Source of the DNA: Thermodesulfobacteriota bacterium
Lineage (GTDB): Bacteria; Desulfobacterota; Thermodesulfobacteria; Thermodesulfobacteriales; Thermodesulfobacteriaceae
NCBI GenBank assembly: GCA_003641645.1
Contig: QNAZ01000001.1
Location: forward strand, 1-47,809
DNA: 47,809 bases
Direction: 5' to 3'
Under the pieces are notes generated by a model. The model was not told the origin of the DNA. It saw nothing but the letters and a program-made list of their open reading frames with translations, and did no database searches. Below are positions 1,057-29,763 of the stretch, piece after piece. The translations under genes and the position numbers were made by a program. Positions within the stretch are counted from its first letter, which is position 1. The number at the start of each line of letters is the position of its first letter.

Positions 1057-3861
1057 ATGCAAATATTCCGCATAGTATTAAATAGAAGCCCAGTTAACTT
1101 TGAATTAATCCCAGTTTACGACATACACTTCGGAACAGTATTCCATGATAAGCATCTTTTCAATAGGTTAGTAAGGTACATCCAAGACAATGAAAATGCT
1201 TATTGGTTTTGTGGTGGGGATATTTGTTATGATGAAGAAACAGAAATTCTTACTCCTGAAGGATGGAAAAAATTTACTGAAATTAAAGAAAGAGATACTG
1301 TAATATGTTATTGGGAAGATTCTCATTGCTTGAGACCTTCTTACATAATAAAAAAGTTTGTTTTCGATTATGGAGGAATAGCTATAAAATTAGAAAGCAG
1401 ATATATAGACCTTTTAGTAACTCCAGAACATAGAGTTTTAATCAAAGATGCAAGTAAATCTCGAATTGTAAAAAGAGCTTTTGAACTACTGGGAAGAAAA
1501 AAACCTTTTTGGATACCTGTAGCAGCTCCTTTCTATAAAAGACATACAGCAAATGGAATGCAAATTACTCATCATGTTAGCGAGCATACTATCAAACTTT
1601 TAGCTTGGATTATAACAGAAGGCTGGTTAGAATATCATCATAGAAATGGAAAACCTTTCAGAATAGGTATAGGACAATCTATAAAGCATAAAGAATATGT
1701 AAAAGAAATAGAAGAATGTATAACAAAATTAGGTTTATCAGCCAGAAAATATCAAAGAAAAGATGGAGTTATTCTTTGGAAATTTAATACAAGATCTACT
1801 GAAAAATTACTTTCCTATTTTGATAGTTTAGATATACATAGAATTCCAAGAAGACTTTTAAATCAAGATTATCCAAACTTAAAAATCTTATTTGATACTT
1901 TAATGAAAGGAGATGGTATTATATCAAAAAACACTTATTGCACTACTTCAGAAAAACTAAAAGATGATTTCTTAGAGCTTTGCTGTAAATTAGGCTACAG
2001 TTGTACAGTTACAAAAACCAGTTCTAACAACATTGTTATGAACAGAAAATGTAAAGTCAAAGACATCTACTTAATTTATATAAGAAAACGCAATGGAGAA
2101 GGTTGGGCAAAAGTTGATAATGTTTCTACTCAATACTATAAAGGAAAAGTTTGGTGTGTTACTGTTCCTTCTGGTTTTATCGTAGTAAGAAGAAATGGAA
2201 AAATAGCAATATGCGGTAACTGTGAATTTATAAACTTACAGGATAAAAGATTCGAATATGAAACTCTTGAAAAATCATTTCAGAAAAATATAGAAAGAAT
2301 CCTAACCTATTCAGTAGAGTATGCAACAGAAAAACTAAAACCAATTGCAAATAAATGTCTATTTATGATAAGTGGGAATCACGATGAAACGCACAGAATT
2401 AGATTTGGGTTTGATCCTATTTCTTCTATCTGTAAAAATTTAGGAATAAAAAACTATACCAATTCTTATGAAGCATTAGTAAAAATTTTATTTAAGCATA
2501 ACAGAACAAGTTCACTTACTTTATATGCTCATCATGGACATGGTTATTCAAAAGTAAGAAGTGGAACTTTACTCAATCCATTAGAAGATGCTATGACAAA
2601 TTTTGACGCTGACATCTTTATAATGGGACATTGTTTATCAGAAGATACTGAAATATTAACAAAAGAAGGCTGGAAAGGAATTGATGAAATTAAAGAAGGA
2701 GATGAAGTCTTAACACTTAACTTAGAAAAAGATATATTAGAATATAATAAAGTACTTGCAAAATGGGTTTACAGTAAAGAAGATTATCCTGAACTAATAC
2801 ATATAAAAAGAAAAGGATTAGATATCTTAGTGACCAAAGATCATAGGATTATATACAAAAGAGAAACAGGATATTTCGAAACTACAGCAGATAACTTAAA
2901 AGCAGTTATGAAAATACCTCAAAGTGGAACTTTTCCAACTGAAGGCTTAAATATGTCAGATGAAGAAATAAAACTTTATGCTTGGATAATTTCTGAAGGA
3001 AGTCTTTATAATATAAAAAATGGAAAAGAATCAGTAGGATTAAACATTTATCAAAATAAAGGAAGTAAATATAGTCAAGAAATCAAAGCAATTTTGGATA
3101 AACTAAAAATCAAATACACTATTGAAGAAAGGAAATTTAAAGGGAGAAAATTTACAATTAGAGGAAAAACTTATAAGACAAAAGATAATTGTTTAAGATT
3201 TTATATCTGGGCTAAAGATGCAAAGAAAATAAGAAAAATCTTAAAAGATAAAACAATACCTCAAATTTTTAAAGATAAAATGAATGATAGACAATGGCTC
3301 ATTTTTTTAAAAGAACTTGTTAAAGGAGATGGACATTTTTCAAAAAATGCTAAATTTTCTTGGCAGTACTATACAAAAAATAAGAAACTTGCAGATGATA
3401 TTCAAGAAATGTGTATAAAACACAATTTAAGATGCTCCATAAAACAAAGAAGAAATCAATATGAACTATATATTTCTAAGCATAATACTTATACAATATG
3501 TAAATATTATAATATATCAAAAACTGTAAAAAATACAGGAAGAGTATGGTGTGTTAGTGTAGCAAATGGAACTATTGTTACAAGAAGAAATGGAAAGGTA
3601 GCAATTTTAGGTAATAGCCATTATTTAGTATTTACATACAAAAACTTTCTCACTTTAAATAATAGTGGAACAAGATTAAAAGTTAAACAAAAATTGTTAT
3701 TAAGAGTTGGCGGATTTAGATTTTCAAGAAAAGTTGGTAGCTGTAGCTATGAAGAAAAAAGAGGAATGCGTCCGAATGCAACTGGAACTTATATCATAAA
3801 AATTATTGCTAATCCTTATCCAATTGGATCATTGAAATTTTCTGTGATTCCTTTTATTTAG
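1057..3861 (+). CDS. Calcineurin-like metallophosphoesterase (about 274 aa spliced) interrupted by two inteins
   Basis: DIHFG, GGDI|C, GNHD, HHGHG and GH|SH metal-binding motifs, with two intein blocks between them. Confidence 0.88.
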   Translation: MQIFRIVLNRSPVNFELIPVYDIHFGTVFHDKHLFNRLVRYIQDNENAYWFCGGDICYDEETEILTPEGWKKFTEIKERDTVICYWEDSHCLRPSYIIKKFVFDYGGIAIKLESRYIDLLVTPEHRVLIKDASKSRIVKRAFELLGRKKPFWIPVAAPFYKRHTANGMQITHHVSEHTIKLLAWIITEGWLEYHHRNGKPFRIGIGQSIKHKEYVKEIEECITKLGLSARKYQRKDGVILWKFNTRSTEKLLSYFDSLDIHRIPRRLLNQDYPNLKILFDTLMKGDGIISKNTYCTTSEKLKDDFLELCCKLGYSCTVTKTSSNNIVMNRKCKVKDIYLIYIRKRNGEGWAKVDNVSTQYYKGKVWCVTVPSGFIVVRRNGKIAICGNCEFINLQDKRFEYETLEKSFQKNIERILTYSVEYATEKLKPIANKCLFMISGNHDETHRIRFGFDPISSICKNLGIKNYTNSYEALVKILFKHNRTSSLTLYAHHGHGYSKVRSGTLLNPLEDAMTNFDADIFIMGHCLSEDTEILTKEGWKGIDEIKEGDEVLTLNLEKDILEYNKVLAKWVYSKEDYPELIHIKRKGLDILVTKDHRIIYKRETGYFETTADNLKAVMKIPQSGTFPTEGLNMSDEEIKLYAWIISEGSLYNIKNGKESVGLNIYQNKGSKYSQEIKAILDKLKIKYTIEERKFKGRKFTIRGKTYKTKDNCLRFYIWAKDAKKIRKILKDKTIPQIFKDKMNDRQWLIFLKELVKGDGHFSKNAKFSWQYYTKNKKLADDIQEMCIKHNLRCSIKQRRNQYELYISKHNTYTICKYYNISKTVKNTGRVWCVSVANGTIVTRRNGKVAILGNSHYLVFTYKNFLTLNNSGTRLKVKQKLLLRVGGFRFSRKVGSCSYEEKRGMRPNATGTYIIKIIANPYPIGSLKFSVIPFI
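1225..2220 (+). mobile_element. Intein 1 (332 aa) with LAGLIDADG homing endonuclease
   Basis: Starts CYDEETEILT; block B LLVTPEHRV; LAGLIDADG-like LLAWIITEG and FDTLMKGDG; ends RRNGKIAICGN followed by Cys+1. Confidence 0.92.
2632..3615 (+). mobile_element. Intein 2 (328 aa) with LAGLIDADG homing endonuclease
   Basis: Starts CLSEDTEILT; ILVTKDHRI; LYAWIISEG and LKELVKGDG; ends RRNGKVAILGN followed by Ser+1. Confidence 0.92.
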
Positions 3862-14682: not shown

Positions 14683-14721
14683 ATCTCAAGTCCCTCCTTT
14701 CAGTTAGCTTTATTTTCTATT

Positions 14722-14749
14722 ATTATATCATAAAAATAAGAAATGTCAA
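14722..14749 (-). promoter_or_regulatory. Sigma70-type promoter TTGACA-N16-TATAAT with extended TG
   Basis: Consensus hexamers; member of a repeated family ending AATAGAAAA. Confidence 0.85.
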
Positions 14750-14976
14750 GACTTTCTATCTTTTCTTAACCAAATTTCAAGAAATACACTCAATCTTGTA
14801 ATATCTATCAACCTATTAAGTAAAAACTCTATGATATAAAGTTCATCATTTTCACTATCAAATTTAAGTTTTTGGATTGTTCTCTCAAATTTAGCTGCAA
14901 TTTGTTTCACTTCTGGCTCAATTTCTCTTGATAATTCTTCTTCAACTTTTCTTAAAGTTTTTATACATTCTTTCAT
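14746..14976 (-). CDS. Hypothetical protein
   Basis: ATGA-coupled ORF. Confidence 0.6.
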   Translation of the reverse strand: MKECIKTLRKVEEELSREIEPEVKQIAAKFERTIQKLKFDSENDELYIIEFLLNRLIDITRLSVFLEIWLRKDRKS

Positions 14977-15484: not shown

Positions 15485-15916
15485 TTAAAGTTTATTTTCT
15501 GGATTCTCATAAAGCAAAAATAACATCCTACCTTGATCTTCCAAAGCTTCTTTACAAGCTTGCAAAATTCCTACTTTTTCCTCAGCTTCTAAAACTTTTT
15601 TAGAAGCTTCAATATATTCTTCATCTGTATAAATTAAACTTTTCACTCCTTCTTCCGTAATCTTCAATCCTTTCTCTACTGCATCCTGTTTATATTTTCT
15701 ATATAATCTATAATAAGTCTCTTTCTGTTGCAACTTTAATTCTGCTAATTTGGAACGCATTCTTTCAAGAGCTAAGGCATATCTTGCTTTTCTTGAAGGA
15801 TAATCTCTTATCAAATCATCTAAATTGAATTCTCCTAATCTAACTGATTTTATAAATTCCTGATATTGCTCTAAAAAAGCATCTAATACTTTTTCATCAA
15901 ACTTACCATTAATCAT
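15485..15916 (-). CDS. UvsY-like recombination mediator
   Basis: All-helical; KITEEGVKSLIYTDEEY pattern; in a RecA/gp32 neighbourhood. Confidence 0.55.
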   Translation of the reverse strand: MINGKFDEKVLDAFLEQYQEFIKSVRLGEFNLDDLIRDYPSRKARYALALERMRSKLAELKLQQKETYYRLYRKYKQDAVEKGLKITEEGVKSLIYTDEEYIEASKKVLEAEEKVGILQACKEALEDQGRMLFLLYENPENKL

Positions 15917-16663: not shown

Positions 16664-16835
16664 ATAATTTCTTTAAAGCTTCATATTCTTCTCTAAGAAT
16701 TATCTTGCTATTGAAAAATGTACAAAAACTACTTCCTGGCTGCCAAAATTCCTCTATTATCTGAACCATATTTTCATTTATCTTAACTGCATAAGTTCTT
16801 GAATTTTGACTTTGTGATATTAAAACTTTTTCCAT
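16626..16835 (-). CDS. Small early protein, tandem paralog of 16463-16663
   Basis: Shared motif as above; lies directly behind a consensus promoter. Confidence 0.7.
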   Translation of the reverse strand: MEKVLISQSQNSRTYAVKINENMVQIIEEFWQPGSSFCTFFNSKIILREEYEALKKLFEGDKNERSYRK

Positions 16836-16844
16836 TTTCTTATT

Positions 16845-16872
16845 ATTATATCATAAAACTGAAACTTGTCAA
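16845..16872 (-). promoter_or_regulatory. Sigma70-type promoter TTGACA-N16-TATAAT with near-leaderless ATG
   Basis: ATG lies 9 nt after the -10 box; no SD. Confidence 0.85.
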
Positions 16873-16888
16873 GATTGAATTTCTCCTT

Positions 16889-17892: not shown

Positions 17893-18738
17893 TTACTTCT
17901 TAAATTTATTATACAAATACAAAATGAACTTTTCATATTGAGAAAAATTCATAAACTTCATAACAGAAGGCTTATTGCTTAAAGGAGATTGCAATGAAAC
18001 CTTAGCATTTATGAATAGTAATCTTCCATAATAATATCTCCAGTATGCATTCACTATTATTCTGATACCATGTTTCAAGTAAAAGATATACTCATTTCCT
18101 AACTTTTCCCATCTCTTTGCAATTCTTCCCAAAGTATTTCTCAGTAATCTGCTTTTTATCTTTAGTAAATCAAATTTGTCTTTAAATTTTTGCTTTAATC
18201 CAATTGAACGGATAAACATTTTTACTTTCTTAATTCCTTGTTTCCAGCTCCATTCTTTGAAAAAGGAAATTGCTTCAAAGCTTTTCTGAGACTTCTTTAT
18301 CATATAGCCGATATTGATACCTTCCAGATTCTTTATGTGAATATATCCATATTTGAAATCTTTAGTAAAGAAATTTTTCATTCCTAAATTTTCAAAATGT
18401 ATATATTTATTGCTTGCAATGTAAATATGCCAGTGAATTACCTGTCTTTGCTGAAATTCTGCATAAGTGAAATATTCATATTGAACATTTCTATAATGAT
18501 AATCAAGATAATCTCTTAAGTGTTTAATAAAACCTGAAATTCCACCAATCTCTTTTATAAAATCTGCATAGCTATCCCAGTCATTAAAACTAAGAGTAAT
18601 TAATTTTACTTTCCAACCCTTTCTTTTTAAATATTTGAATAATCTGGCACTGATGGCAATATTATCAATAACTCTTTTTCTGCACAATTCAATATAGCTT
18701 AATTCTATTAAGTTCTCTTTTCTTTCTGGAATATTCAA
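17893..18738 (-). CDS. HUH-superfamily rolling-circle Rep-like endonuclease
   Basis: Motif I LITLSF, motif II EFQQRQVIHWHI, motif III YMIKK; TTG start. Confidence 0.72.
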   Translation of the reverse strand: MNIPERKENLIELSYIELCRKRVIDNIAISARLFKYLKRKGWKVKLITLSFNDWDSYADFIKEIGGISGFIKHLRDYLDYHYRNVQYEYFTYAEFQQRQVIHWHIYIASNKYIHFENLGMKNFFTKDFKYGYIHIKNLEGINIGYMIKKSQKSFEAISFFKEWSWKQGIKKVKMFIRSIGLKQKFKDKFDLLKIKSRLLRNTLGRIAKRWEKLGNEYIFYLKHGIRIIVNAYWRYYYGRLLFINAKVSLQSPLSNKPSVMKFMNFSQYEKFILYLYNKFKK

Positions 18739-21538: not shown

Positions 21539-21566
21539 TTGAAGAAAATGAAAAGTATGGTATAAT
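21539..21566 (+). promoter_or_regulatory. Promoter TTGAAG-N16-TATAAT (TG-extended) for the Cys-rich / Cas7-like / array / pol unit
   Basis: Followed by AATAAGAAAA, like the other family members. Confidence 0.75.
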
Positions 21567-21599: not shown

Positions 21600-21980
21600 A
21601 TGGTAATGGTTAGAAATAGGTTATATTCTGAAAAAGATTATAAAGGACAGTGGATTGATGCTCCTGATGAATGTTGTCCTTGCAGACCTTGTTGGCATTT
21701 GTATCATTTTCCTTGGTGGGATAGTTCAGGAAAGATGCATAGTCATTTTAATTGTGTTACAAGACATAATAGTGGATGTCCTTTTCCTAAACTAAGACCT
21801 CTTCATATTTTTTATCTTTCTAAGAGATTTAAAAAGAGAAAGAAAGGGGATGTATTCAGATGTTTAAGATGTGGAAAGGAAGTAAGGCTAGGAGAAGAAG
21901 AATGTGATTGGATAGCTGTTCCACATCGTCAAAGAAAGAAAATTATAGAATATTTAAGACAAAAGGGAATAAGAGCATAA
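21600..21980 (+). CDS. Cys/His-rich putative zinc-binding protein
   Basis: CCPCRPCWH, HFNC...H.SGC, CLRC; TAAGGAGG SD. Confidence 0.7.
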   Translation: MVMVRNRLYSEKDYKGQWIDAPDECCPCRPCWHLYHFPWWDSSGKMHSHFNCVTRHNSGCPFPKLRPLHIFYLSKRFKKRKKGDVFRCLRCGKEVRLGEEECDWIAVPHRQRKKIIEYLRQKGIRA

Positions 21981-22004: not shown

Positions 22005-22805
22005 ATGATAGAAACATTAGAGTTAGTAGTAAGGTTAAGTTTTATTTCTGACATACTTGGGACAGCTCCAAGTCCAGAATTATTGAAATTAGATTTCTTT
22101 AAAATGATTGGAAAGAAAGCTTTAAAGGATGCAAAGAAGTTGGAAAAAGAAACAGAAAGATTATCGACCGAAGCTTATACTAAAGAAGACTATAAGGTAT
22201 CAAAGTCTTCCGAAGAGAAAGAAAAGAATAATGAAATAACACAGATAACTTATTTCAGAAAAGATAATAAAGGAATTTATTTACCAAATTTTATGGTTAA
22301 GGGATTTCTTAAAGCTGCTGCTCAAGCTTTAAAGGAGCAAATTAACTTACCAAATCCAAGAGCGAAGATTGACAGATATGTTTTTATATTTCCTAACAAA
22401 ATTTATTTGTATAGAAATGGAAATGTTCTTAAGAAACATAAAGATGAGTATATTCGTCCAATAAGGGCAATGACTCCAAAGGGTGAGAGAACTTCTTTGG
22501 TATCATCTGAGAGAATTGAAGCATCGGAAGATAATCCTGTTATAACAGATGAAATTAGAATTGTGTTGATTAAGAATAGAGAAATAAATCTGAAGAAATT
22601 GAAGAAGATGTTGGAGTATGGACTTTATTCTGGAATAAGTCAATGGAGGAGTGCTGGATTTGGTAGATTTAAATGGGAGCTTATTTCTCAGACTGAAGAA
22701 ATAGAAGAGGAGAAGGAAAAAGTTGAGAATAAGAGTGAAAACGAAGAAAACAATAATGAAGTGAAGAAAAAGAAGATAAAAGTGAAAAAGGCAAATGAGA
22801 AGTGA
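22005..22805 (+). CDS. Solo Cas7/RAMP-fold (Csm3/Csf2-like) RNA-binding protein
   Basis: N-terminal beta-strand plus ILGT; YLPNFMVKGFLKAAA (compare IPGSSLKG.LR); C-terminal glycine-rich loop YSGISQWRSAGFGRF; acidic/basic tail; AGGAGG SD. No other cas genes in the window. Confidence 0.72.
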   Translation: MIETLELVVRLSFISDILGTAPSPELLKLDFFKMIGKKALKDAKKLEKETERLSTEAYTKEDYKVSKSSEEKEKNNEITQITYFRKDNKGIYLPNFMVKGFLKAAAQALKEQINLPNPRAKIDRYVFIFPNKIYLYRNGNVLKKHKDEYIRPIRAMTPKGERTSLVSSERIEASEDNPVITDEIRIVLIKNREINLKKLKKMLEYGLYSGISQWRSAGFGRFKWELISQTEEIEEEKEKVENKSENEENNNEVKKKKIKVKKANEK

Positions 22806-23389
22806 TGGAAGGATTTTGTTTTGGGAATTATTGTTTAGTGAAGCAAAGGTAAAGTTTTGATTAGAGGAGTGAAGTTTTGATAAGGTAAAGGTTGTGTGCA
22901 GGAGTGTTAGGTATTGGTTTAGAAATGTTATGAGTTGAATGAGTACTGTTATGGAGAAGTGGAGAAATGTGTCGCAGAGTTTTGGTTTTGTTATGTAATG
23001 AAACGAAGAGTTTTGCAAAGGAAAACTATTATCTTGTATCGTTGTGGTTATGTTAAGATTGGTAATGTTGAGGTTATGTTATATATAGACTTGTATTGTT
23101 GAGGTTAGGTTAAGTAACCTGATGTTTAGTAATGGTTTTGTTTCGTCCAGTTGGATCTTGTTTTGGAGCTGTTTTGCATATTAATGTTTTGGAACTGTTA
23201 AGTAAAGATTAGTAATGGTAAAGTTAGAAGATGTTTTGTAGTGTAGAGGATAAGCATTGTTTTGTGCAGTAAAGGTTGTGCAATGTTAATTAAAGCAATG
23301 TTTTCTCTTGTTCTGAAAGTAAAGTTAAAGTTATGCTTTGTAGTATAGGGTTAAGGTTATGTTCAGTTTGATAGAGTAGTGTAAAGATA
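22806..23389 (+). ncRNA. Cryptic pentamer array (xGY-NN)n in about 20 units of 5n+1 nt; candidate guide-RNA array for the Cas7-like protein
   Basis: Starts at the first base after the stop codon. By hand count, G is at pentamer position 2 in about 100 of 113 pentamers. Unit starts: 22806, 22847, 22883, 22889, 22915, 22941, 22952, 22983, 23019, 23045, 23071, 23102, 23133, 23164, 23190, 23216, 23247, 23273, about 23314, 23328, 23354. The RNA function is inferred. Confidence 0.8.
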
Positions 23390-23412
23390 AAAAATAAGCA
23401 AAGGAGTTTGTA

Positions 23413-26067
23413 ATGGCAGATTATGTAAATGTAAAAGAATGGTGTCCAGTATTAAATCCTTTTGATGAGTTTTGCTATAGGATAATAGAGAAATATGGAA
23501 ATGGAGATTTTGAAAATTTACCTTGTATGAAGTTATATTCAAAAGTAAAAACTCCATGTGTAAGAAGTGAAGGGAATAAAGATAAAAGTATAATGATTAC
23601 AGCCCAAAACCCAGGCATTCAGGAAGATGAAGCTGATAGACCTTTTATAGGTCCTTCAGGAAAGAAGTTAGAAGAAGTTTTGAAAGATTTAGGATATAAA
23701 AGAGAAGACTTTTATATAACAAATGCAGTTAAATGTTATGGAGAAACAGATGAGATAACTCAAAGTATGATAAAGATATGTTCTATTTCTATTTTAAGAA
23801 GAGAAATAAACTTAATTAAACCAAATATGATAATCTGTTTAGGAAGGATTGCATTTTTAGGAGTTCAGTATGCATTATTAGGAAAGATAAAAGAAGAATT
23901 TGAAAGAGGAAAAATCGTAGAAATTGAAAGTCCTATTTTAGGAGAAAAGAAAAAAGTAAAAGTATGTATGACATATCATCCTTCTTACATTTTGAGAAAT
24001 CCAAATTATGAGCCAGAATTCAAGAAAGACTTAAGCACTTTTCTGAAAGAAGGAGATATAACAATAGAGTATGAAATTTTAAATACCTATGAAAAAGTGA
24101 AAGATTTTGTTGACAGTATAGTAAATAGTAAAGAAGAAGTTTATGCAGTAGTAGATTTAGAAACTTTTAGTAAAGATGTTCATGATCCTAATAACAAGAT
24201 ATTCTGTATTGGAATAGCTCTATCAGAAAAGAAAGCATTTATTATTCCTTTGAGACATTATGAAGCATTAAAAAGACAGATTATTAATTTCTTTATAGAA
24301 GGAATTCAAGAAAAAGTAATAGAAGAATTAAGAAGATTATTTTCTTATGAGAAATTAAAGATAATAGGACACAATTTTAAGTTTGATGCATTGGTTCTGT
24401 TAAGAGATTTAGAAGTAGATGTGATGGATAAAGTTTATGCTGATACATTAGTTTATCATCATTTATTAAAGGAAACTCCACCACATGATTTGAAAACATT
24501 AATTACTCTTTATACCCCTTTTTCAAACTATTACAAAGAAATGAAAGAAGTTTTTGTATCAAAGAAAGAAAAGTGGTATCATTATGTTGATTTTAATGAT
24601 TTGTATAGATATTGTGCTTATGATTGCTGCTCCAATTATTATCTCTGGAAAGAGTTAGACAGAAGAATAAAGCAATTAGATTTATGGCAAAAAAATTTAT
24701 CCAATAAGGTCAATAAACTAATAGAAGAACACAAAAAGCTAAATAAACCTTACATAACTCCTTACTATACTTACTTTCAGATAGAGAAGCTTAAAGAATT
24801 AGAAATGGAACATTATAGAATTCTTTTTGAAATGGAAAAGAATGGATTACCTTTTTCAAGAAGCTATGTGGAAAACTTAAAAGAAGAAGTTCAATATAAA
24901 ATGAAGGAAAAACAGAATGAATTAAGTAAATTAGCTGGGAAGATGATAAATTGGAATTCTCCTCAGCAGATTTCCAAATTATTTAAAGAATTGGGAATAG
25001 ATTCTCCAAAGAAAACTCCTAAAGGAAATCCTTCTTATGATGAAGAAGCTCTAAAGATTTTAGCGGAAAATGGAGTAGAAATAGCCCAAAAATTGCTTGA
25101 ATATAGAAAATTGTTGAAGAATTATACTACTTATGTTTTATTTCTTGAAAATTATAATTATAGATTAAAACAAACAGAAACTGAAGATATTGTCAGACTA
25201 TCTTGCAATATTAATATTGCTGGAACTGAAACAGGGAGATTATCAACATCTAATCCTGCTTTTCATGGAATTCCAAGAGATAATTTATATAGAAATATGG
25301 TTCAAGCAGAAGAAGGCTGGTTAATAGTAAGTGCAGATTATTCTATGGCAGATTTAAGAATGCTTGCTGGTTATAGTAATTGCAAAGGTATGATAGAAGC
25401 ATTTAATAGTGGAATTGATTTTCATACTTTAACAGCATCATTAATATTTGATAAAGATCCTGAAGACATATCTGTAGAAGAGAGGACAACAGCCAAAACA
25501 ATTAATTTTTCTGTTGCTTATTTAATTACTCCTTTTAAACTGTCTCAAAAACTCAAAACTTCAATAAAAGAAGCTCAAAATTTTATAGATAGATGGTTTC
25601 AGGACAAGCCAGAGATAAAATACTTTTTCAATGTTTTAATTTCTCAATATGATAAAGTAGAAGAAGGAAAGGAAGCTAAATTTGTAAATGTTTTTGGGAG
25701 AATGAGAAGAGTTCAAAAAGTAAGAAAATTTTATGAAGATAAATTTACAGGAAAAAGAAAGCTAAATCCTGAATATTCTCATAGAGTTAAGGAAATAGTT
25801 AATTTTTATCCTCAATCAACAGTAGCAGATGCATTAATGATAGGTCTTATTAGACTAAAGAAAAAGTTAGTAGAAAAAGATTTAATTCCTTATTGTAGAT
25901 TTCTCCTAACAATACATGATGCTCTATTATTAGAAGTAAAGAAGGAAAAAGTAGATGAAATATGTGAAATAGTCAAATGGGCAATGGAATTTCCTATTCC
26001 TTTTGCTAACTGTCAAATAGTAATTCCAGTTGATTTCACTATTGACAAAATGTGGAAGAAGGAATAA
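23413..26067 (+). CDS. polA: Family A DNA polymerase with N-terminal family-4-type uracil-DNA glycosylase domain (SPO1-like) and 3'-5' exonuclease
   Basis: UDG: AQNPG..ED...PFIGPSG, TNAVKC, YHPS. Exonuclease: DLET, HNFKFD, YCAYD. Polymerase: TGRLS, DYSMADLR, R..AK..NF...Y, HD. Confidence 0.93.
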   Translation: MADYVNVKEWCPVLNPFDEFCYRIIEKYGNGDFENLPCMKLYSKVKTPCVRSEGNKDKSIMITAQNPGIQEDEADRPFIGPSGKKLEEVLKDLGYKREDFYITNAVKCYGETDEITQSMIKICSISILRREINLIKPNMIICLGRIAFLGVQYALLGKIKEEFERGKIVEIESPILGEKKKVKVCMTYHPSYILRNPNYEPEFKKDLSTFLKEGDITIEYEILNTYEKVKDFVDSIVNSKEEVYAVVDLETFSKDVHDPNNKIFCIGIALSEKKAFIIPLRHYEALKRQIINFFIEGIQEKVIEELRRLFSYEKLKIIGHNFKFDALVLLRDLEVDVMDKVYADTLVYHHLLKETPPHDLKTLITLYTPFSNYYKEMKEVFVSKKEKWYHYVDFNDLYRYCAYDCCSNYYLWKELDRRIKQLDLWQKNLSNKVNKLIEEHKKLNKPYITPYYTYFQIEKLKELEMEHYRILFEMEKNGLPFSRSYVENLKEEVQYKMKEKQNELSKLAGKMINWNSPQQISKLFKELGIDSPKKTPKGNPSYDEEALKILAENGVEIAQKLLEYRKLLKNYTTYVLFLENYNYRLKQTETEDIVRLSCNINIAGTETGRLSTSNPAFHGIPRDNLYRNMVQAEEGWLIVSADYSMADLRMLAGYSNCKGMIEAFNSGIDFHTLTASLIFDKDPEDISVEERTTAKTINFSVAYLITPFKLSQKLKTSIKEAQNFIDRWFQDKPEIKYFFNVLISQYDKVEEGKEAKFVNVFGRMRRVQKVRKFYEDKFTGKRKLNPEYSHRVKEIVNFYPQSTVADALMIGLIRLKKKLVEKDLIPYCRFLLTIHDALLLEVKKEKVDEICEIVKWAMEFPIPFANCQIVIPVDFTIDKMWKKE

Positions 26068-26771: not shown

Positions 26772-26802
26772 AGCTTTGAAATTTTGTAGGAAGGAGGTCA
26801 GT

Positions 26803-29763
26803 ATGTATGGAATTGAATTGTTTTTCTCAAATACTTTATTTGGTAAGAGAGTTTATTCTTATTTTTTAAAAGAGCATCCAAAGATATTAGAATATTGGAA
26901 AATACATCCTAAGAATTTTGATTTTAATAAGTTTCAGAAGAAATATTTTACAGTTGATTATATTCAAGATATTTCTGCAAATCCTTCAAGTAATGTAACA
27001 AATAAAAGCATTGCAAGATTTAAAGTTGAAATGATAACTCCATTTATAAAGTATCTAACATTTTCAACTTTATTTGAGAAAATGGTAGAAATGTATGGGA
27101 TAAATGAAGCTACAGAATATTCAAAAATGTTATTAGATGGAACTTTTTATTTACATGATACAGCAGCTTATATAATGTCCTATTGTCTTGGAGTTGACTT
27201 CAGTAAACTATTATTAGAAGGAATGCCTTATGGTCAATTACATTCATTACCACCTAAAAAACCAAGAACTTTTATTAATCAAGTAAAGGAAGCAATAATT
27301 GAGTTATCAAGTGAATTTGCTGGTGCTATAGCATTTCCAAGCTTGATTGTTTTATACACTTACATTTATCTTAAATACTATGGAAAAGATTATAAGATAA
27401 ATGAGAAAGAAGTAGAAGATGATTTTCAAAATTTGGTTCATACAATTAATAAAGAATTAAGAAATGGGCAAGAAAGCCCCTTTTCCAATTTATCTTTCTT
27501 TGACAGATACATCTTAGATGAATTGTTGACTTATGTTTATTCCTATTTTACAAATGAAATAGGAGATAAGGAATTATTTCTTAAGAGAATTTTAGAAATT
27601 CAAGAAATTGTAATGGAATTTTTATGTAAAGGAGATCCAATTACAAAAGCTCCTTATAGATTTCCTGTAATTACTGTAAATTTTATCAAAGATAAGAAAA
27701 TGGGAAAAATATTGGATAGAGAATTTTTAGATTTAGTAGCTAAAAATAACACAAAAGGACAAATGAATATTTATGTTTCTGATGATGCAAGAAAATATTC
27801 CTTATGTTGTCGTTTTCAGCCAGACATTACCACATTTAAATTTGATAGTTTTGGTAATGGTGGAATCAATGTTGGTTGCTATGATGAGAAAACAGAAGTA
27901 TTAACTGATAGAGGTTGGAAGTATTTTAAGGATTTGAAAGAAGAAGATTTAGTTTTGACTTTAAATATGGAGACAGGGAAAGCAGAATTTCAAAAACCTA
28001 CTCACTATTTTGAGTATGAATATGAAGGAATTATGCACCATTATAAGTCAAGAGATATTGATTTGCTTGTTACTCCTAACCATAATATGTTAGTCAAGTC
28101 AAGGAAAACAGGAGAATTGAAACTAATAAAATCAGAAGATTTGAATGGTCAAGGATATAATTTACCTGTTTCTGGATTTCATATTAGTAAAGATAAATTA
28201 GGAACCATTACTATTGGGAATAAAAAATATGATAGCAAAGTTTTTTGTAGATTTTTGGGTTTCTTTTTAGCAGATGGTTCATGCTATCTTAATGAAGAAA
28301 TTGCAAAAAAATATGGTTGGGAAATATCTTTTTCAGTAAAAAAGAGTAGAAAAATTAAGTTTTTGAAAAGGGTTTTAGAAAAAATGCAAGCTAAATATAA
28401 TAAATATCAAGATAGATTTGCTATTTACGAAGGTAAAGAATTTTATGAATTTTTAAGAAAATTTTATGATAGTGAAAACAAAAAGTGTATAGATAAAGAT
28501 TTTATGTTAAAGCTTGGATATGAAGATTTGCTATGTTTATTTGAAGGTTTAATAGAAGGAGATGGTTATAATAATAAAAAAGCTAATCAGGTTATTTTTT
28601 ATACTTCTTCTGATAAATTAAAAGATGATTTTTGTTACCTTTGTGCTTTAATAGGTTATCAAACAACTGTAAGAAAGAAAGGTAATCCCAGAATTAGAGA
28701 AACTTATTTTAAAAAAGAAAATAGGGTAATTATTGGAAAATGTTATGAAATAGTTGTTAGAAGAAATAAAGAAATCCATAAAATAGTGAAATATAAACAG
28801 ACAAGATATTATAAAGGAAAAGTTTATTGTGTTGAAGTTCCAAATCATATTCTAATGATTAGAAGAAATGGACATACTTTATGGTGTGGTAATAGTATCC
28901 GAGTTCTTACTATAAATCTTAATAGAATAGCTTTAGAAGTGTTAGAGCAAATTGAGGATAATTTTGATATTGATTACAAGACTATTTACTTACAAAAGCT
29001 TAAAGAGAGAATGAATGTTGCAAAGAAAATTTTAGATAGTTTTAGAGAATGTATAAGAAACTTCATCAAGCAAAGTTGTTATAGATTTTTCAATCTTGGT
29101 TGGTTTGATTTGGATAAGCATTTCTATTCTACAATTGGTTTTATTGGATTATATGAAGCATTGAGAACTTTAGATAAAGATTTAAGAAGTAGCTTTGCAA
29201 TAGATATTTTAGAAACAATGGATGATATGATTACAGAGTTCAATAAAAATAGAAAAATAAAATACAACTTAGAGCAAGTTCCTGGAGAAAGTGCAGCAGG
29301 ATTACTTCCAAGTCTTGACAGATATTTTTATGGAGAAGAAAAAGTTCCTTATGTTTTATATTCCAATCAATTTGTTCCTTTATATGAAAGACATTCAATA
29401 CTTGATAAAATAGAAATAGAAGGAAGATATTTTAAGTATCTATCTGGAGGTGGGATAAGTCATATAAATATATTACATGAAATGAAGCCAGAAGAAGTTA
29501 AGTTTTTGATTGAATTATGTGTAGAAAAAGGAATAGAGCATTTTGCATTAAATCCAGTTTATTCTATTTGTGAAAATGGACATTATTTATTGGGAAAATA
29601 TGATGAATGTTATATTTGTGGAGCAAAAATAAAAGATCATTTGACAAGAGTAGTAGGTTTCTTCACTCCAGTTAGTGCTTGGAATGACAAGCGAAGAAAT
29701 TGGGAATTTTCAAGAAGAGTTTGGAATACTCTAAAAGGAGATATAAAGAGAGAAAAGAAATAA
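26803..29763 (+). CDS. nrdD: Class III anaerobic ribonucleoside-triphosphate reductase with intein
   Basis: YLHD, R.GQESPF.N, SLCCRF finger loop, TINLNRIA, PGES, CENGH...CYICG, glycyl-radical RVVGF. Start moved to ATG 26803, behind AGGAGG. Confidence 0.93.
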   Translation: MYGIELFFSNTLFGKRVYSYFLKEHPKILEYWKIHPKNFDFNKFQKKYFTVDYIQDISANPSSNVTNKSIARFKVEMITPFIKYLTFSTLFEKMVEMYGINEATEYSKMLLDGTFYLHDTAAYIMSYCLGVDFSKLLLEGMPYGQLHSLPPKKPRTFINQVKEAIIELSSEFAGAIAFPSLIVLYTYIYLKYYGKDYKINEKEVEDDFQNLVHTINKELRNGQESPFSNLSFFDRYILDELLTYVYSYFTNEIGDKELFLKRILEIQEIVMEFLCKGDPITKAPYRFPVITVNFIKDKKMGKILDREFLDLVAKNNTKGQMNIYVSDDARKYSLCCRFQPDITTFKFDSFGNGGINVGCYDEKTEVLTDRGWKYFKDLKEEDLVLTLNMETGKAEFQKPTHYFEYEYEGIMHHYKSRDIDLLVTPNHNMLVKSRKTGELKLIKSEDLNGQGYNLPVSGFHISKDKLGTITIGNKKYDSKVFCRFLGFFLADGSCYLNEEIAKKYGWEISFSVKKSRKIKFLKRVLEKMQAKYNKYQDRFAIYEGKEFYEFLRKFYDSENKKCIDKDFMLKLGYEDLLCLFEGLIEGDGYNNKKANQVIFYTSSDKLKDDFCYLCALIGYQTTVRKKGNPRIRETYFKKENRVIIGKCYEIVVRRNKEIHKIVKYKQTRYYKGKVYCVEVPNHILMIRRNGHTLWCGNSIRVLTINLNRIALEVLEQIEDNFDIDYKTIYLQKLKERMNVAKKILDSFRECIRNFIKQSCYRFFNLGWFDLDKHFYSTIGFIGLYEALRTLDKDLRSSFAIDILETMDDMITEFNKNRKIKYNLEQVPGESAAGLLPSLDRYFYGEEKVPYVLYSNQFVPLYERHSILDKIEIEGRYFKYLSGGGISHINILHEMKPEEVKFLIELCVEKGIEHFALNPVYSICENGHYLLGKYDECYICGAKIKDHLTRVVGFFTPVSAWNDKRRNWEFSRRVWNTLKGDIKREKK
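27877..28893 (+). mobile_element. Intein 3 (339 aa) with LAGLIDADG endonuclease in nrdD
   Basis: CYDEKTEVLT...LLVTPNH...FLGFFLADG...GLIEGDG...RRNGHTLWCGN|S. Confidence 0.92.

What the first reader, a model, noticed from the sequence alone, without database searches (positions are those of the whole stretch)
22806..23389. Array grammar: units of 5n+1 nt punctuated by one extra base before GGH
Seen by hand parsing, consecutive units include a-GGTta-TGTta-TATat-AGAct-TGTat-TGTtg (23071), a-GGTta-GGTta-AGTaa-CCTga-TGTtt-AGTaa (23102), t-GGTtt-TGTtt-CGTcc-AGTtg-GATct-TGTtt (23133), t-GGAgc-TGTtt-TGCat-ATTaa-TGTtt (23164), t-GGAac-TGTta-AGTaa-AGAtt-AGTaa (23190), t-GGTaa-AGTta-GAAga-TGTtt-TGTag-TGTag (23216) and a-GGAta-AGCat-TGTtt-TGTgc-AGTaa (23247). 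Spacings between unit starts are 41, 36, 6, 26, 26, 11, 31, 36, 26, 26, 31, 31, 31, 26, 26, 31, 26, 41, 14, 26; all but one equal 5n+1. No two units are identical, so CRISPR or tandem-repeat finders would probably miss it. Inference: the +1 W|GG junction marks a processing site or filament boundary, giving guides of mostly 26-41 nt.
Basis: seen in the sequence. Interest (0 to 1): 0.9.

Follow-up and report, generated by a model that had tools for sequence, protein, structure and literature searches.

The report
Staggered VIPR guides spell contiguous targets
This phage stretch is a real array of about 20 back-to-back five-base-repeat units behind a Cas7-like gene, a new example of the recently described VIPR gene-silencing system; the units are likely separate guide RNAs, and in this family they appear to spell all three target bases per repeat instead of the published two, which would bear on how the guides read or are copied from rival phage DNA.

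Summary
Observation confirmed. The region 22806-23389 is a 5-nt-periodic, non-coding array with +1 phase slips before GG: parse score 92.7 against at most 22.1 in 200 shuffles. It follows a Vipr-family RAMP gene in a phage. This is a VIPR system with the published 'staggered' layout and a WGT-type repeat, also published. The grammar is clade-wide: 1209 of 1427 phase shifts in 72 arrays are +1. Strains gain and lose whole units.

New: a unit is best written G(GH-NNN)n, with three variable bases per repeat. One unit of a related phage, read as triplets, matches 21/21 the ribosome-binding site and start codon of an AlpA gene in a sister phage. Across 2031 units, triplets spell Shine-Dalgarno sites more often than chance, and this is lost when only third bases are permuted. 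Against full pairing: third bases diverge about twice as fast. No target was found for this window's own guides, and no RNA data exist. New variant of a known system.

The parts
22005..22805 (+). vipr gene, 266 aa: RAMP/Cas7-like fold with thumb and G-loop (Q213-W214-R215), plus a charged low-confidence C-terminal tail
   Evidence: Model pLDDT 71; Foldseek top hits are Cas7/Csm3-type chains, E 2e-6; phrog_4652 E 7.7e-5, the family holding SUSP1 Vipr at E 1e-96; 2194 homologous clusters
22806..23389 (+). Staggered vrRNA array, about 20-21 abutting units G(GH-NNN)n. G-starts: 22807, 22848, 22879, 22890, 22916, 22937, 22953, 22984, 23020, 23046, 23072, 23103, 23134, 23165, 23191, 23217, 23248, 23274, (23315, degenerate), 23329, 23355. 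Most are 21-41 nt; 11-, 14- and 16-nt pieces look decayed. No structured tail.
   Evidence: folding z -0.15; longest stop-free frame varies between strains and is at most 106 aa in all 9
21539..21566 (+). Extended -10 promoter-like site, likely driving vipr, array and DNA polymerase as one transcript (inferred)
   Evidence: 10 sites found against 10 expected, so weak alone; a similar site lies directly before vipr in L002, L007 and L009
21600..21980 (+). 126-aa Cys/His-rich ORF between promoter and vipr; strain-specific, not a conserved vap
   Evidence: No tblastn hit in 289 related loci; absent between promoter and vipr in L002, L007 and L009; no family hit
23401..26067 (+). Ribosome-binding site (23401-23406) and UDG-DNA polymerase A fusion gene directly after the array; no terminator found between them

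Best explanation
A phage gene of the Vipr (Cas7-like) family is followed by about 20 abutting units of the form G(GH-NNN)n, which are likely cut into separate 21-41-nt guide RNAs that would steer Vipr filaments to DNA of rival phages and likely silence it. SHOWN: the gene family, the grammar, whole-unit gain and loss, and, in a relative, a unit that matches a 21-nt target at three target bases per repeat. INFERRED from the SUSP1 structures (bioRxiv 10.64898/2026.04.26.720927): one protomer binds per repeat and flips the scaffold bases. The one-base phase slip at each junction would break the filament and expose a cut site, giving 4-8-protomer complexes without the type II tail. Each guide would pair with the DNA strand complementary to its triplet string, often at translation starts (same sense as the mRNA, so not antisense RNA), and block expression. 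Unlike type II, repeat position 1 is not a fixed G but carries the base that type II skips. I commit to weak reading of this third base (pairing looser than at the NN positions). A non-pairing trace of copying from the target is the close rival.
For: RAMP fold and SUSP1-family link. Arrays in 74 of 80 viral and 74 of 80 genome loci of the family, and 0 of 120 control loci. +1 shifts 1209 of 1427, with G first after the shift in 1078 of 1209; shuffles give 234 of 742, with GG in 44 of 234. Whole-unit indels. 21/21 match of L149:2242-2277 (phage G044) to L245:1728-1748 (phage G045): E 1.5e-7 among 248 units under the triplet rule, 0.005 under the NN-skip rule, and not among the top hits of the four other rules. 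That site is the SD and ATG of an AlpA gene, and G044's own alpA-like gene lacks it. Strong SD in 52 of 2031 decoded units against 33.6 (inner blocks shuffled) and 34.3 (third bases permuted); SD plus ATG in 8 against 2.1; p at most 0.002; no excess when third bases are dropped. The SUSP1 residues that read G1 (H17, D177) align with T20 and Q213 (T/S in 144 and Q in 138 of 149 aligned sequences), while W178 and R179 are kept (the H17 pairing is by motif, by eye).
Against: No target above control for this window's own guides in the bin, vent phages, host-family mobile regions or IMG/VR. Only one strong target in the whole family: 2 against 0 at E<1e-4 among 1882 units (the second, 18/18, is expected 0.18 times by chance), and none in 49 more gut and rumen phage records. 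Third bases differ at 39 of 362 sites in 63 near-identical unit pairs, against 43 of 724 for NN (p 0.007), the same rate as scaffold H at 38 of 362. Within the window's own clade the third base (0.128) is not distinguishable from NN (p 0.27) or H (p 0.14). The sense-strand bias may partly reflect C-avoidance in a G-rich RNA. 11-16-nt units are too short to be useful guides. Host assignment rests on one spacer.
Confidence: 0.75

Rival explanations
1. Same system and same unit boundaries, but the published 2-of-3 skip rule holds strictly. The third base does not pair and matches only because guides are made by copying target DNA in triplets with GH inserted; it then drifts.
For: Third base diverges like the scaffold H base; the SUSP1 structure extrudes both G1 and the skipped target base; the 21/21 match and SD excess fit recent copying equally well.
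Against: No acquisition enzyme is found beside the gene. Loss of the G1-reading residues suggests a freed base that could pair. At 12-14 read bases in AT-rich DNA, single units already have chance-level matches in a 1-Mb bin, so a third base would help specificity.
Confidence: 0.4
2. The array is not cut. One long RNA scaffolds several Vipr filaments, and the +1 slips are hinges between independent targeting modules.
For: No tail, hairpin, ribozyme or terminator; no nuclease neighbour; the array is continuous with the polymerase RBS.
Against: The fig. S18 legend draws processed boundaries (figure not seen; the text lists sRNA-seq confirmation only for the other two layouts). Junction-flanking repeats are the most conserved, as expected of a handle.
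Confidence: 0.15
3. Guides act on the phage's own or the host's genes (self-regulation or host takeover), not on rival phages.
For: Many units are shared across 9 strains; the array sits in an operon with DNA polymerase; the rest of this phage genome was only partly available.
Against: No self or host match above control. No self hit among 49 further phage records. The one clear target is in another phage and absent from the guide's own genome.
Confidence: 0.1
4. A decayed low-complexity or protein-coding repeat without RNA-guide function.
For: Some degenerate units; a 171-aa minus-strand ORF overlaps the start of the array.
Against: No conserved open frame across 9 strains; frame-breaking unit indels; strict linkage to the RAMP gene; a decoded target.
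Confidence: 0.02

Closest known systems
VIPR systems with staggered vrRNA arrays (bioRxiv 10.64898/2026.04.26.720920, main text and fig. S18 legend; figure not seen)
   Same: Vipr gene in a phage without CRISPR; abutting pentamer guides where one ends as the next starts; '1 nt overlap' equals 5n+1 spacing if the shared base is the G; YNNNG/NNNNG consensus named in its methods
   Different: The paper as read gives no target, rule or RNA test for this layout and uses only NN-skip queries. Here triplets spell a contiguous target and the guides have 4-8 repeats. I could not assign a VIPR type (fig. 5A and data S4 not seen).
Type II VIPR of phage SUSP1 and the P. fulva prophage (same paper; structures in bioRxiv 10.64898/2026.04.26.720927)
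   Same: Same PHROG family; G-loop W-R kept; three target bases per 5-nt repeat
   Different: GGY fixed, 9-16 repeats, structured 3' tail and vap1 there; here position 1 is variable, G1-reading residues are replaced, and there is no tail and no vap
Non-canonical WGT/NN and TGH/NN VIPR-like arrays (bioRxiv 10.64898/2026.10.21.760802, passages)
   Same: The repeat motif of this window (W-G-T/H) is listed there
   Different: It models three constrained plus two free positions; no phase slip or target is given in the passages read
Class 1 CRISPR Cas7/Csm3 backbones
   Same: Fold; a multi-unit precursor yielding short guides
   Different: No direct repeats or cas genes found in the window; 5-nt guide period with scaffold bases interleaved

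Membership tests
VIPR | Vipr protein: small RAMP with RRM core, thumb and G-loop | tested here: met
VIPR | Minimal locus without CRISPR repeats or cas genes, mostly viral | tested here: met
   Tail and replication genes; no cas hit in the ORFs scanned (21 Pfam, 18 PHROGs, 38 NCBIfam); no CRISPR array
VIPR | Adjacent non-coding pentamer repeats, GGY/NN or related consensus | tested here: met
   W-G-H-N-N, with GGH at unit starts
VIPR | Target read at three bases per repeat (NN plus one) | tested here: inconclusive
   Register met for one unit of a relative with a 44%-identical-class Vipr; no target for the window's own units
VIPR | vrRNA expressed and bound by Vipr; silencing of target | not testable with these tools
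   No RNA holder listed
VIPR, staggered layout | Abutting guides with 1-nt overlapping boundaries | tested here: met
   5n+1 spacing with a shared G; matched to the legend only, the figure was not seen
Type II VIPR (SUSP1) | 9-16 YNNGG repeats with invariant GGY | tested here: not met
   4-8 repeats; GG essentially only at unit starts
Type II VIPR (SUSP1) | Structured 3' tail per guide and a vap gene | tested here: not met
   Folding z -0.15; upstream ORF not conserved
CRISPR-Cas class 1 | Direct-repeat/spacer array and cas operon | tested here: not met

The most novel reading that the evidence does not exclude
The large staggered VIPR clade uses a second code, G(GH-NNN)n: each protomer presents three bases that read an uninterrupted DNA target, mainly translation-start regions of rival phages. 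Guides are written by copying target DNA in triplets. This would be an intermediate between gapped VIPR reading and contiguous CRISPR reading, and a first sequence trace of how VIPR guides are acquired.
Probability: 0.4. Interest if true: 0.85.

Novelty: new variant of a known kind. Interest (0 to 1): 0.6.

Why it matters
The system, the staggered layout and the WGT motif are in print, so the +1 grammar alone is not a discovery. What the papers read here leave open is what staggered guides target, whether the 2-of-3 rule is universal, and how guides arise. If the third base carries target identity, then either there is a contiguous-reading VIPR (a very small programmable DNA binder with 26-36-nt guides, here likely from a hot-vent phage) or guides are copied from targets. 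Either is testable with one natural guide-target pair found here, and the triplet rule makes target searches for some 2000 homologous protein clusters far more specific.

Tried and rejected
Targets of the window's guides:
- NN rules with 0-3 skips, 17 units against the bin: chance level.
- Triplet rule, 95 clade units against the bin: none at E<0.01.
- Vent phage records G041-G048 and related loci, six rules: nothing for the window clade.
- Host-family AlpA, terminase and integrase regions, 250 units against 0.70 Mb of both strands: 3 against 1.7 at E<0.01.
- IMG/VR scans: 120 matches to unit 1 (scan stopped at 39 of 64 parts), at most 6 of 8 third bases matched; 2 and 3 exact matches for two other units, two of them giant-virus records, not followed up and taken as chance.
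- 22 same-genus genomes: unit 1 at control level; another unit 12 against 6 control, partly orthologous sites.

Further family targets:
- 1969 units against 49 gut and rumen phage records: 11 against 9 at E<0.01.
- One guide against IMG/VR: 22 matches, at most 21 of 27.
- One guide against 401 genomes: 72 matches against 21 control, by eye none above 22 of 26, excess probably from codon-like spacing.

Weak or confounded tests, not leaned on: Markov genome-likeness of decoded strings, z 2.2; codon-frame mixture fit, confounded by composition.

Other: no RNA holder listed. Of 13 short phage-host matches checked, only 1 lay between CRISPR repeats. A gp32 search found no further relatives. The Atlas gave only unnamed viral clusters. 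The wide structure search was not obtained, and the PDB copy predates the VIPR structures. Rejected: coding ORF, CRISPR, simple tandem repeat, upstream ORF as vap, W as the inserted base.

Full report
SETTING. The window is contig C1 of a 1.05-Mb bin. It is a phage segment with tail proteins, DNA polymerase A fused to UDG, RecA, gp32, ThyX and NrdD. Near-identical DNA and variants lie in sediment, seawater and hydrothermal-vent runs (X1 and X2 may be the source). A genome of the bin's genus (G016) has a spacer between two CRISPR repeats matching window 15672-15708 at 32 of 37, modest support for that genus as host.

OBSERVATION. The stretch between the stop of ORF 22005-22805 and the polymerase RBS is strongly 5-periodic in G (z 9.9 at lag 5; 8.4, 9.0 and 6.9 at lags 26, 31 and 36) and is the strongest such region in the bin. 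An HMM reproduces the seven quoted units. A parse free to shift by -2 to +2 scores 92.7 against at most 22.1 in 200 shuffles and chooses +1 in 17 of 19 shifts, 15 of them before GG.

THE PROTEIN. It has no Pfam or NCBIfam hit. The model (pLDDT 71) matches Cas7/Csm3-type chains (top E 2e-6) and a viral 'RAMP superfamily' model (E 5e-14). It hits phrog_4652 at 7.7e-5, the family that SUSP1 Vipr (YP_009199429.1, named) matches at 1e-96. A profile finds 2194 clusters at 50% identity. In the G-loop, SUSP1 D177-W178-R179 aligns with Q213-W214-R215, and H17 by motif with T20. H17 and D177 read G1 in the SUSP1 structure, while W178 and R179 hold G2 and Y3. So the G1 readers are replaced (Q in 138, T/S in 144 of 149 sequences) and the G2/Y3 readers kept.

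THE GRAMMAR IS CLADE-WIDE. Arrays lie in 74 of 80 viral and 74 of 80 genome loci of the family, and in 0 of 120 control loci. Of 85 sources, 12 were dropped as duplicates and 1 had no array; in the other 72, 1209 of 1427 shifts are +1, unit lengths peak at 26, 31 and 21, and the repeat after a shift starts with G in 1078 of 1209 cases. In middle repeats position 1 is as mixed as the NN positions (A .36, C .14, G .26, T .25), and the 'extra' base has a like make-up (A .34, C .22, G .17, T .27); the repeats flanking a junction keep G at .99 and Y at .83-.94. The simplest grammar is therefore G(GH-NNN)n. Read as 5n+2 guides sharing a G, this is the '1 nt overlapping' staggered array of the VIPR paper (fig. 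S18 legend).

UNITS ARE MODULES. Among 8 relatives with 92-96% identical Vipr, anchor spacings change by -26, -57 (26+31, three strains), -42 (31+11) and +36 (two strains); +40 and +45 include a degenerate 14-nt piece, and a few 1-nt indels occur.

WHAT UNITS SPELL. I tested six rules on 248 vent-phage units against 0.75 Mb (both strands, arrays masked). One hit stood out: under the contiguous triplet rule, unit L149:2242-2277 of phage G044 matches L245:1728-1748 of related phage G045 at 21/21, E 1.5e-7 (1.4e-6 among 1882 units). The site is the Shine-Dalgarno and ATG of a 63-aa AlpA gene 350 nt upstream of G045's own vipr. G044 carries a 97%-identical piece of that gene but not this start site. 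Neighbouring units do not match the flanks. Under the published NN-skip rule it is 14/14 (E 0.005), so the seven third-base identities are additional. Family-wide, 2031 non-redundant decoded units contain strong SD motifs 52 times against 33.6 (inner blocks shuffled) or 34.3 (only third bases permuted), and SD plus ATG 8 times against 2.1 (p at most 0.002, 1000 shuffles). NN-only strings show no excess (16 against 11.4, p 0.08), nor does the reverse complement (7 against 5.4).

AGAINST. This is the only strong target. A second 18/18 match is expected 0.18 times among 1882 tests; 49 further phage records gave 11 against 9 at E<0.01; two targeted scans gave none. No window guide has a target above control in any set searched. 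Third bases differ in 39 of 362 sites among 63 near-identical unit pairs, against 43 of 724 for NN (p 0.007), like scaffold H. So the third base records the target but is under weaker constraint: loose pairing, tracking of wobble changes, or a relic of copying.

MECHANISM. Inferred steps: transcription with vipr and polymerase from the promoter-like site at 21539-21566; one Vipr per repeat; a filament break and cut at each phase slip (enzyme unknown); 4-8-mer complexes invading duplex DNA at three bases per protomer; repression of rival-phage genes, often at their starts. Shown steps: family membership, grammar, modularity, one target in a relative, and the SD excess.

WHAT IS KNOWN. bioRxiv 10.64898/2026.04.26.720920: whole held text read, with methods and legends; supplement PDF text searched; figures and data S1-S4 not seen, and these may bear on type assignment and on whether triplet reading was noticed. 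It names staggered arrays and NNNGG/YNNNG/NNNNG repeats, runs target searches with NN-skip queries for types II, III and V, and lists sRNA-seq support for ribozyme and single-guide layouts, not staggered ones. 10.64898/2026.04.26.720927: first part and passages. 10.64898/2026.10.15.759431: passages, no 'staggered' and no SD terms. 10.64898/2026.10.21.760802: passages, lists WGT/NN. Five library searches showed no other VIPR paper; subscription journals are not covered. Earlier scan notes list several staggered VIPR loci; none matched a triplet/RBS query.

VERDICT. Real feature; a VIPR member of the staggered layout; new variant on account of the three-base code evidence. Interest 0.6.

Noticed in passing
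L149:2242-2277 (G044) and L245:1728-1748 (G045): Natural guide-target pair, 21/21, on the SD and ATG of an AlpA gene of a sister phage that has its own VIPR locus 350 nt downstream.
   Followed up: yes
L008:3715-3810; L010:9863-10222: A 53%-identical Vipr has only two or three units behind it, while a larger array lies about 4 kb downstream; G044 likewise has a second array about 700 nt after the first (L149:3163-3386).
   Followed up: partly
L003:1052-1380; L006:1656-2024: In two strains an unrelated ORF-sized insert separates vipr from the array; in the window a different ORF (21600-21980) is inserted between promoter and vipr.
   Followed up: partly
L012:3017-3720 (Hydrogenobaculum phage 1, KP282676.1): A described 19-kb phage carries a distant Vipr (ALG96927.1) and a +1-slip array over which two small hypothetical CDSs are annotated.
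   Followed up: partly
L337:168-270 (G016:C172) versus window 15672-15708: Two-repeat CRISPR remnant whose spacer matches this phage at 32 of 37, all five differences transitions.
   Followed up: yes
L255, L256: 92-95% identical Vipr loci sit in bins labelled as archaea, while other family loci sit in many unrelated bacterial bins: likely mis-binned phage contigs.
   Followed up: no
window 17893-18738 (-): Rolling-circle-type Rep domain (PF23343) inside a tailed-phage genome.
   Followed up: no
window 1057-3861 and 26776-29763: Intein/LAGLIDADG domains in a large ORF, and similar DNA inside nrdD (28537-28631 resembles 1888-1970).
   Followed up: no
window 14712-14751 and 16829-16874; bin contigs C66, C74: A roughly 45-nt motif repeated in the window and on two other contigs, probably a phage promoter; C66 also overlaps the window start by 123 nt and may be more of this phage.
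   Followed up: no
P0049, P0132: Family hits of 458 and 432 aa with three matched stretches: possible tandem Vipr fusions.
   Followed up: no
window 23134-23164, 23165-23190, 23248-23273: Read as triplets, these units contain short palindromes (6-10 nt), as operator or restriction sites would; not tested against chance.
   Followed up: no
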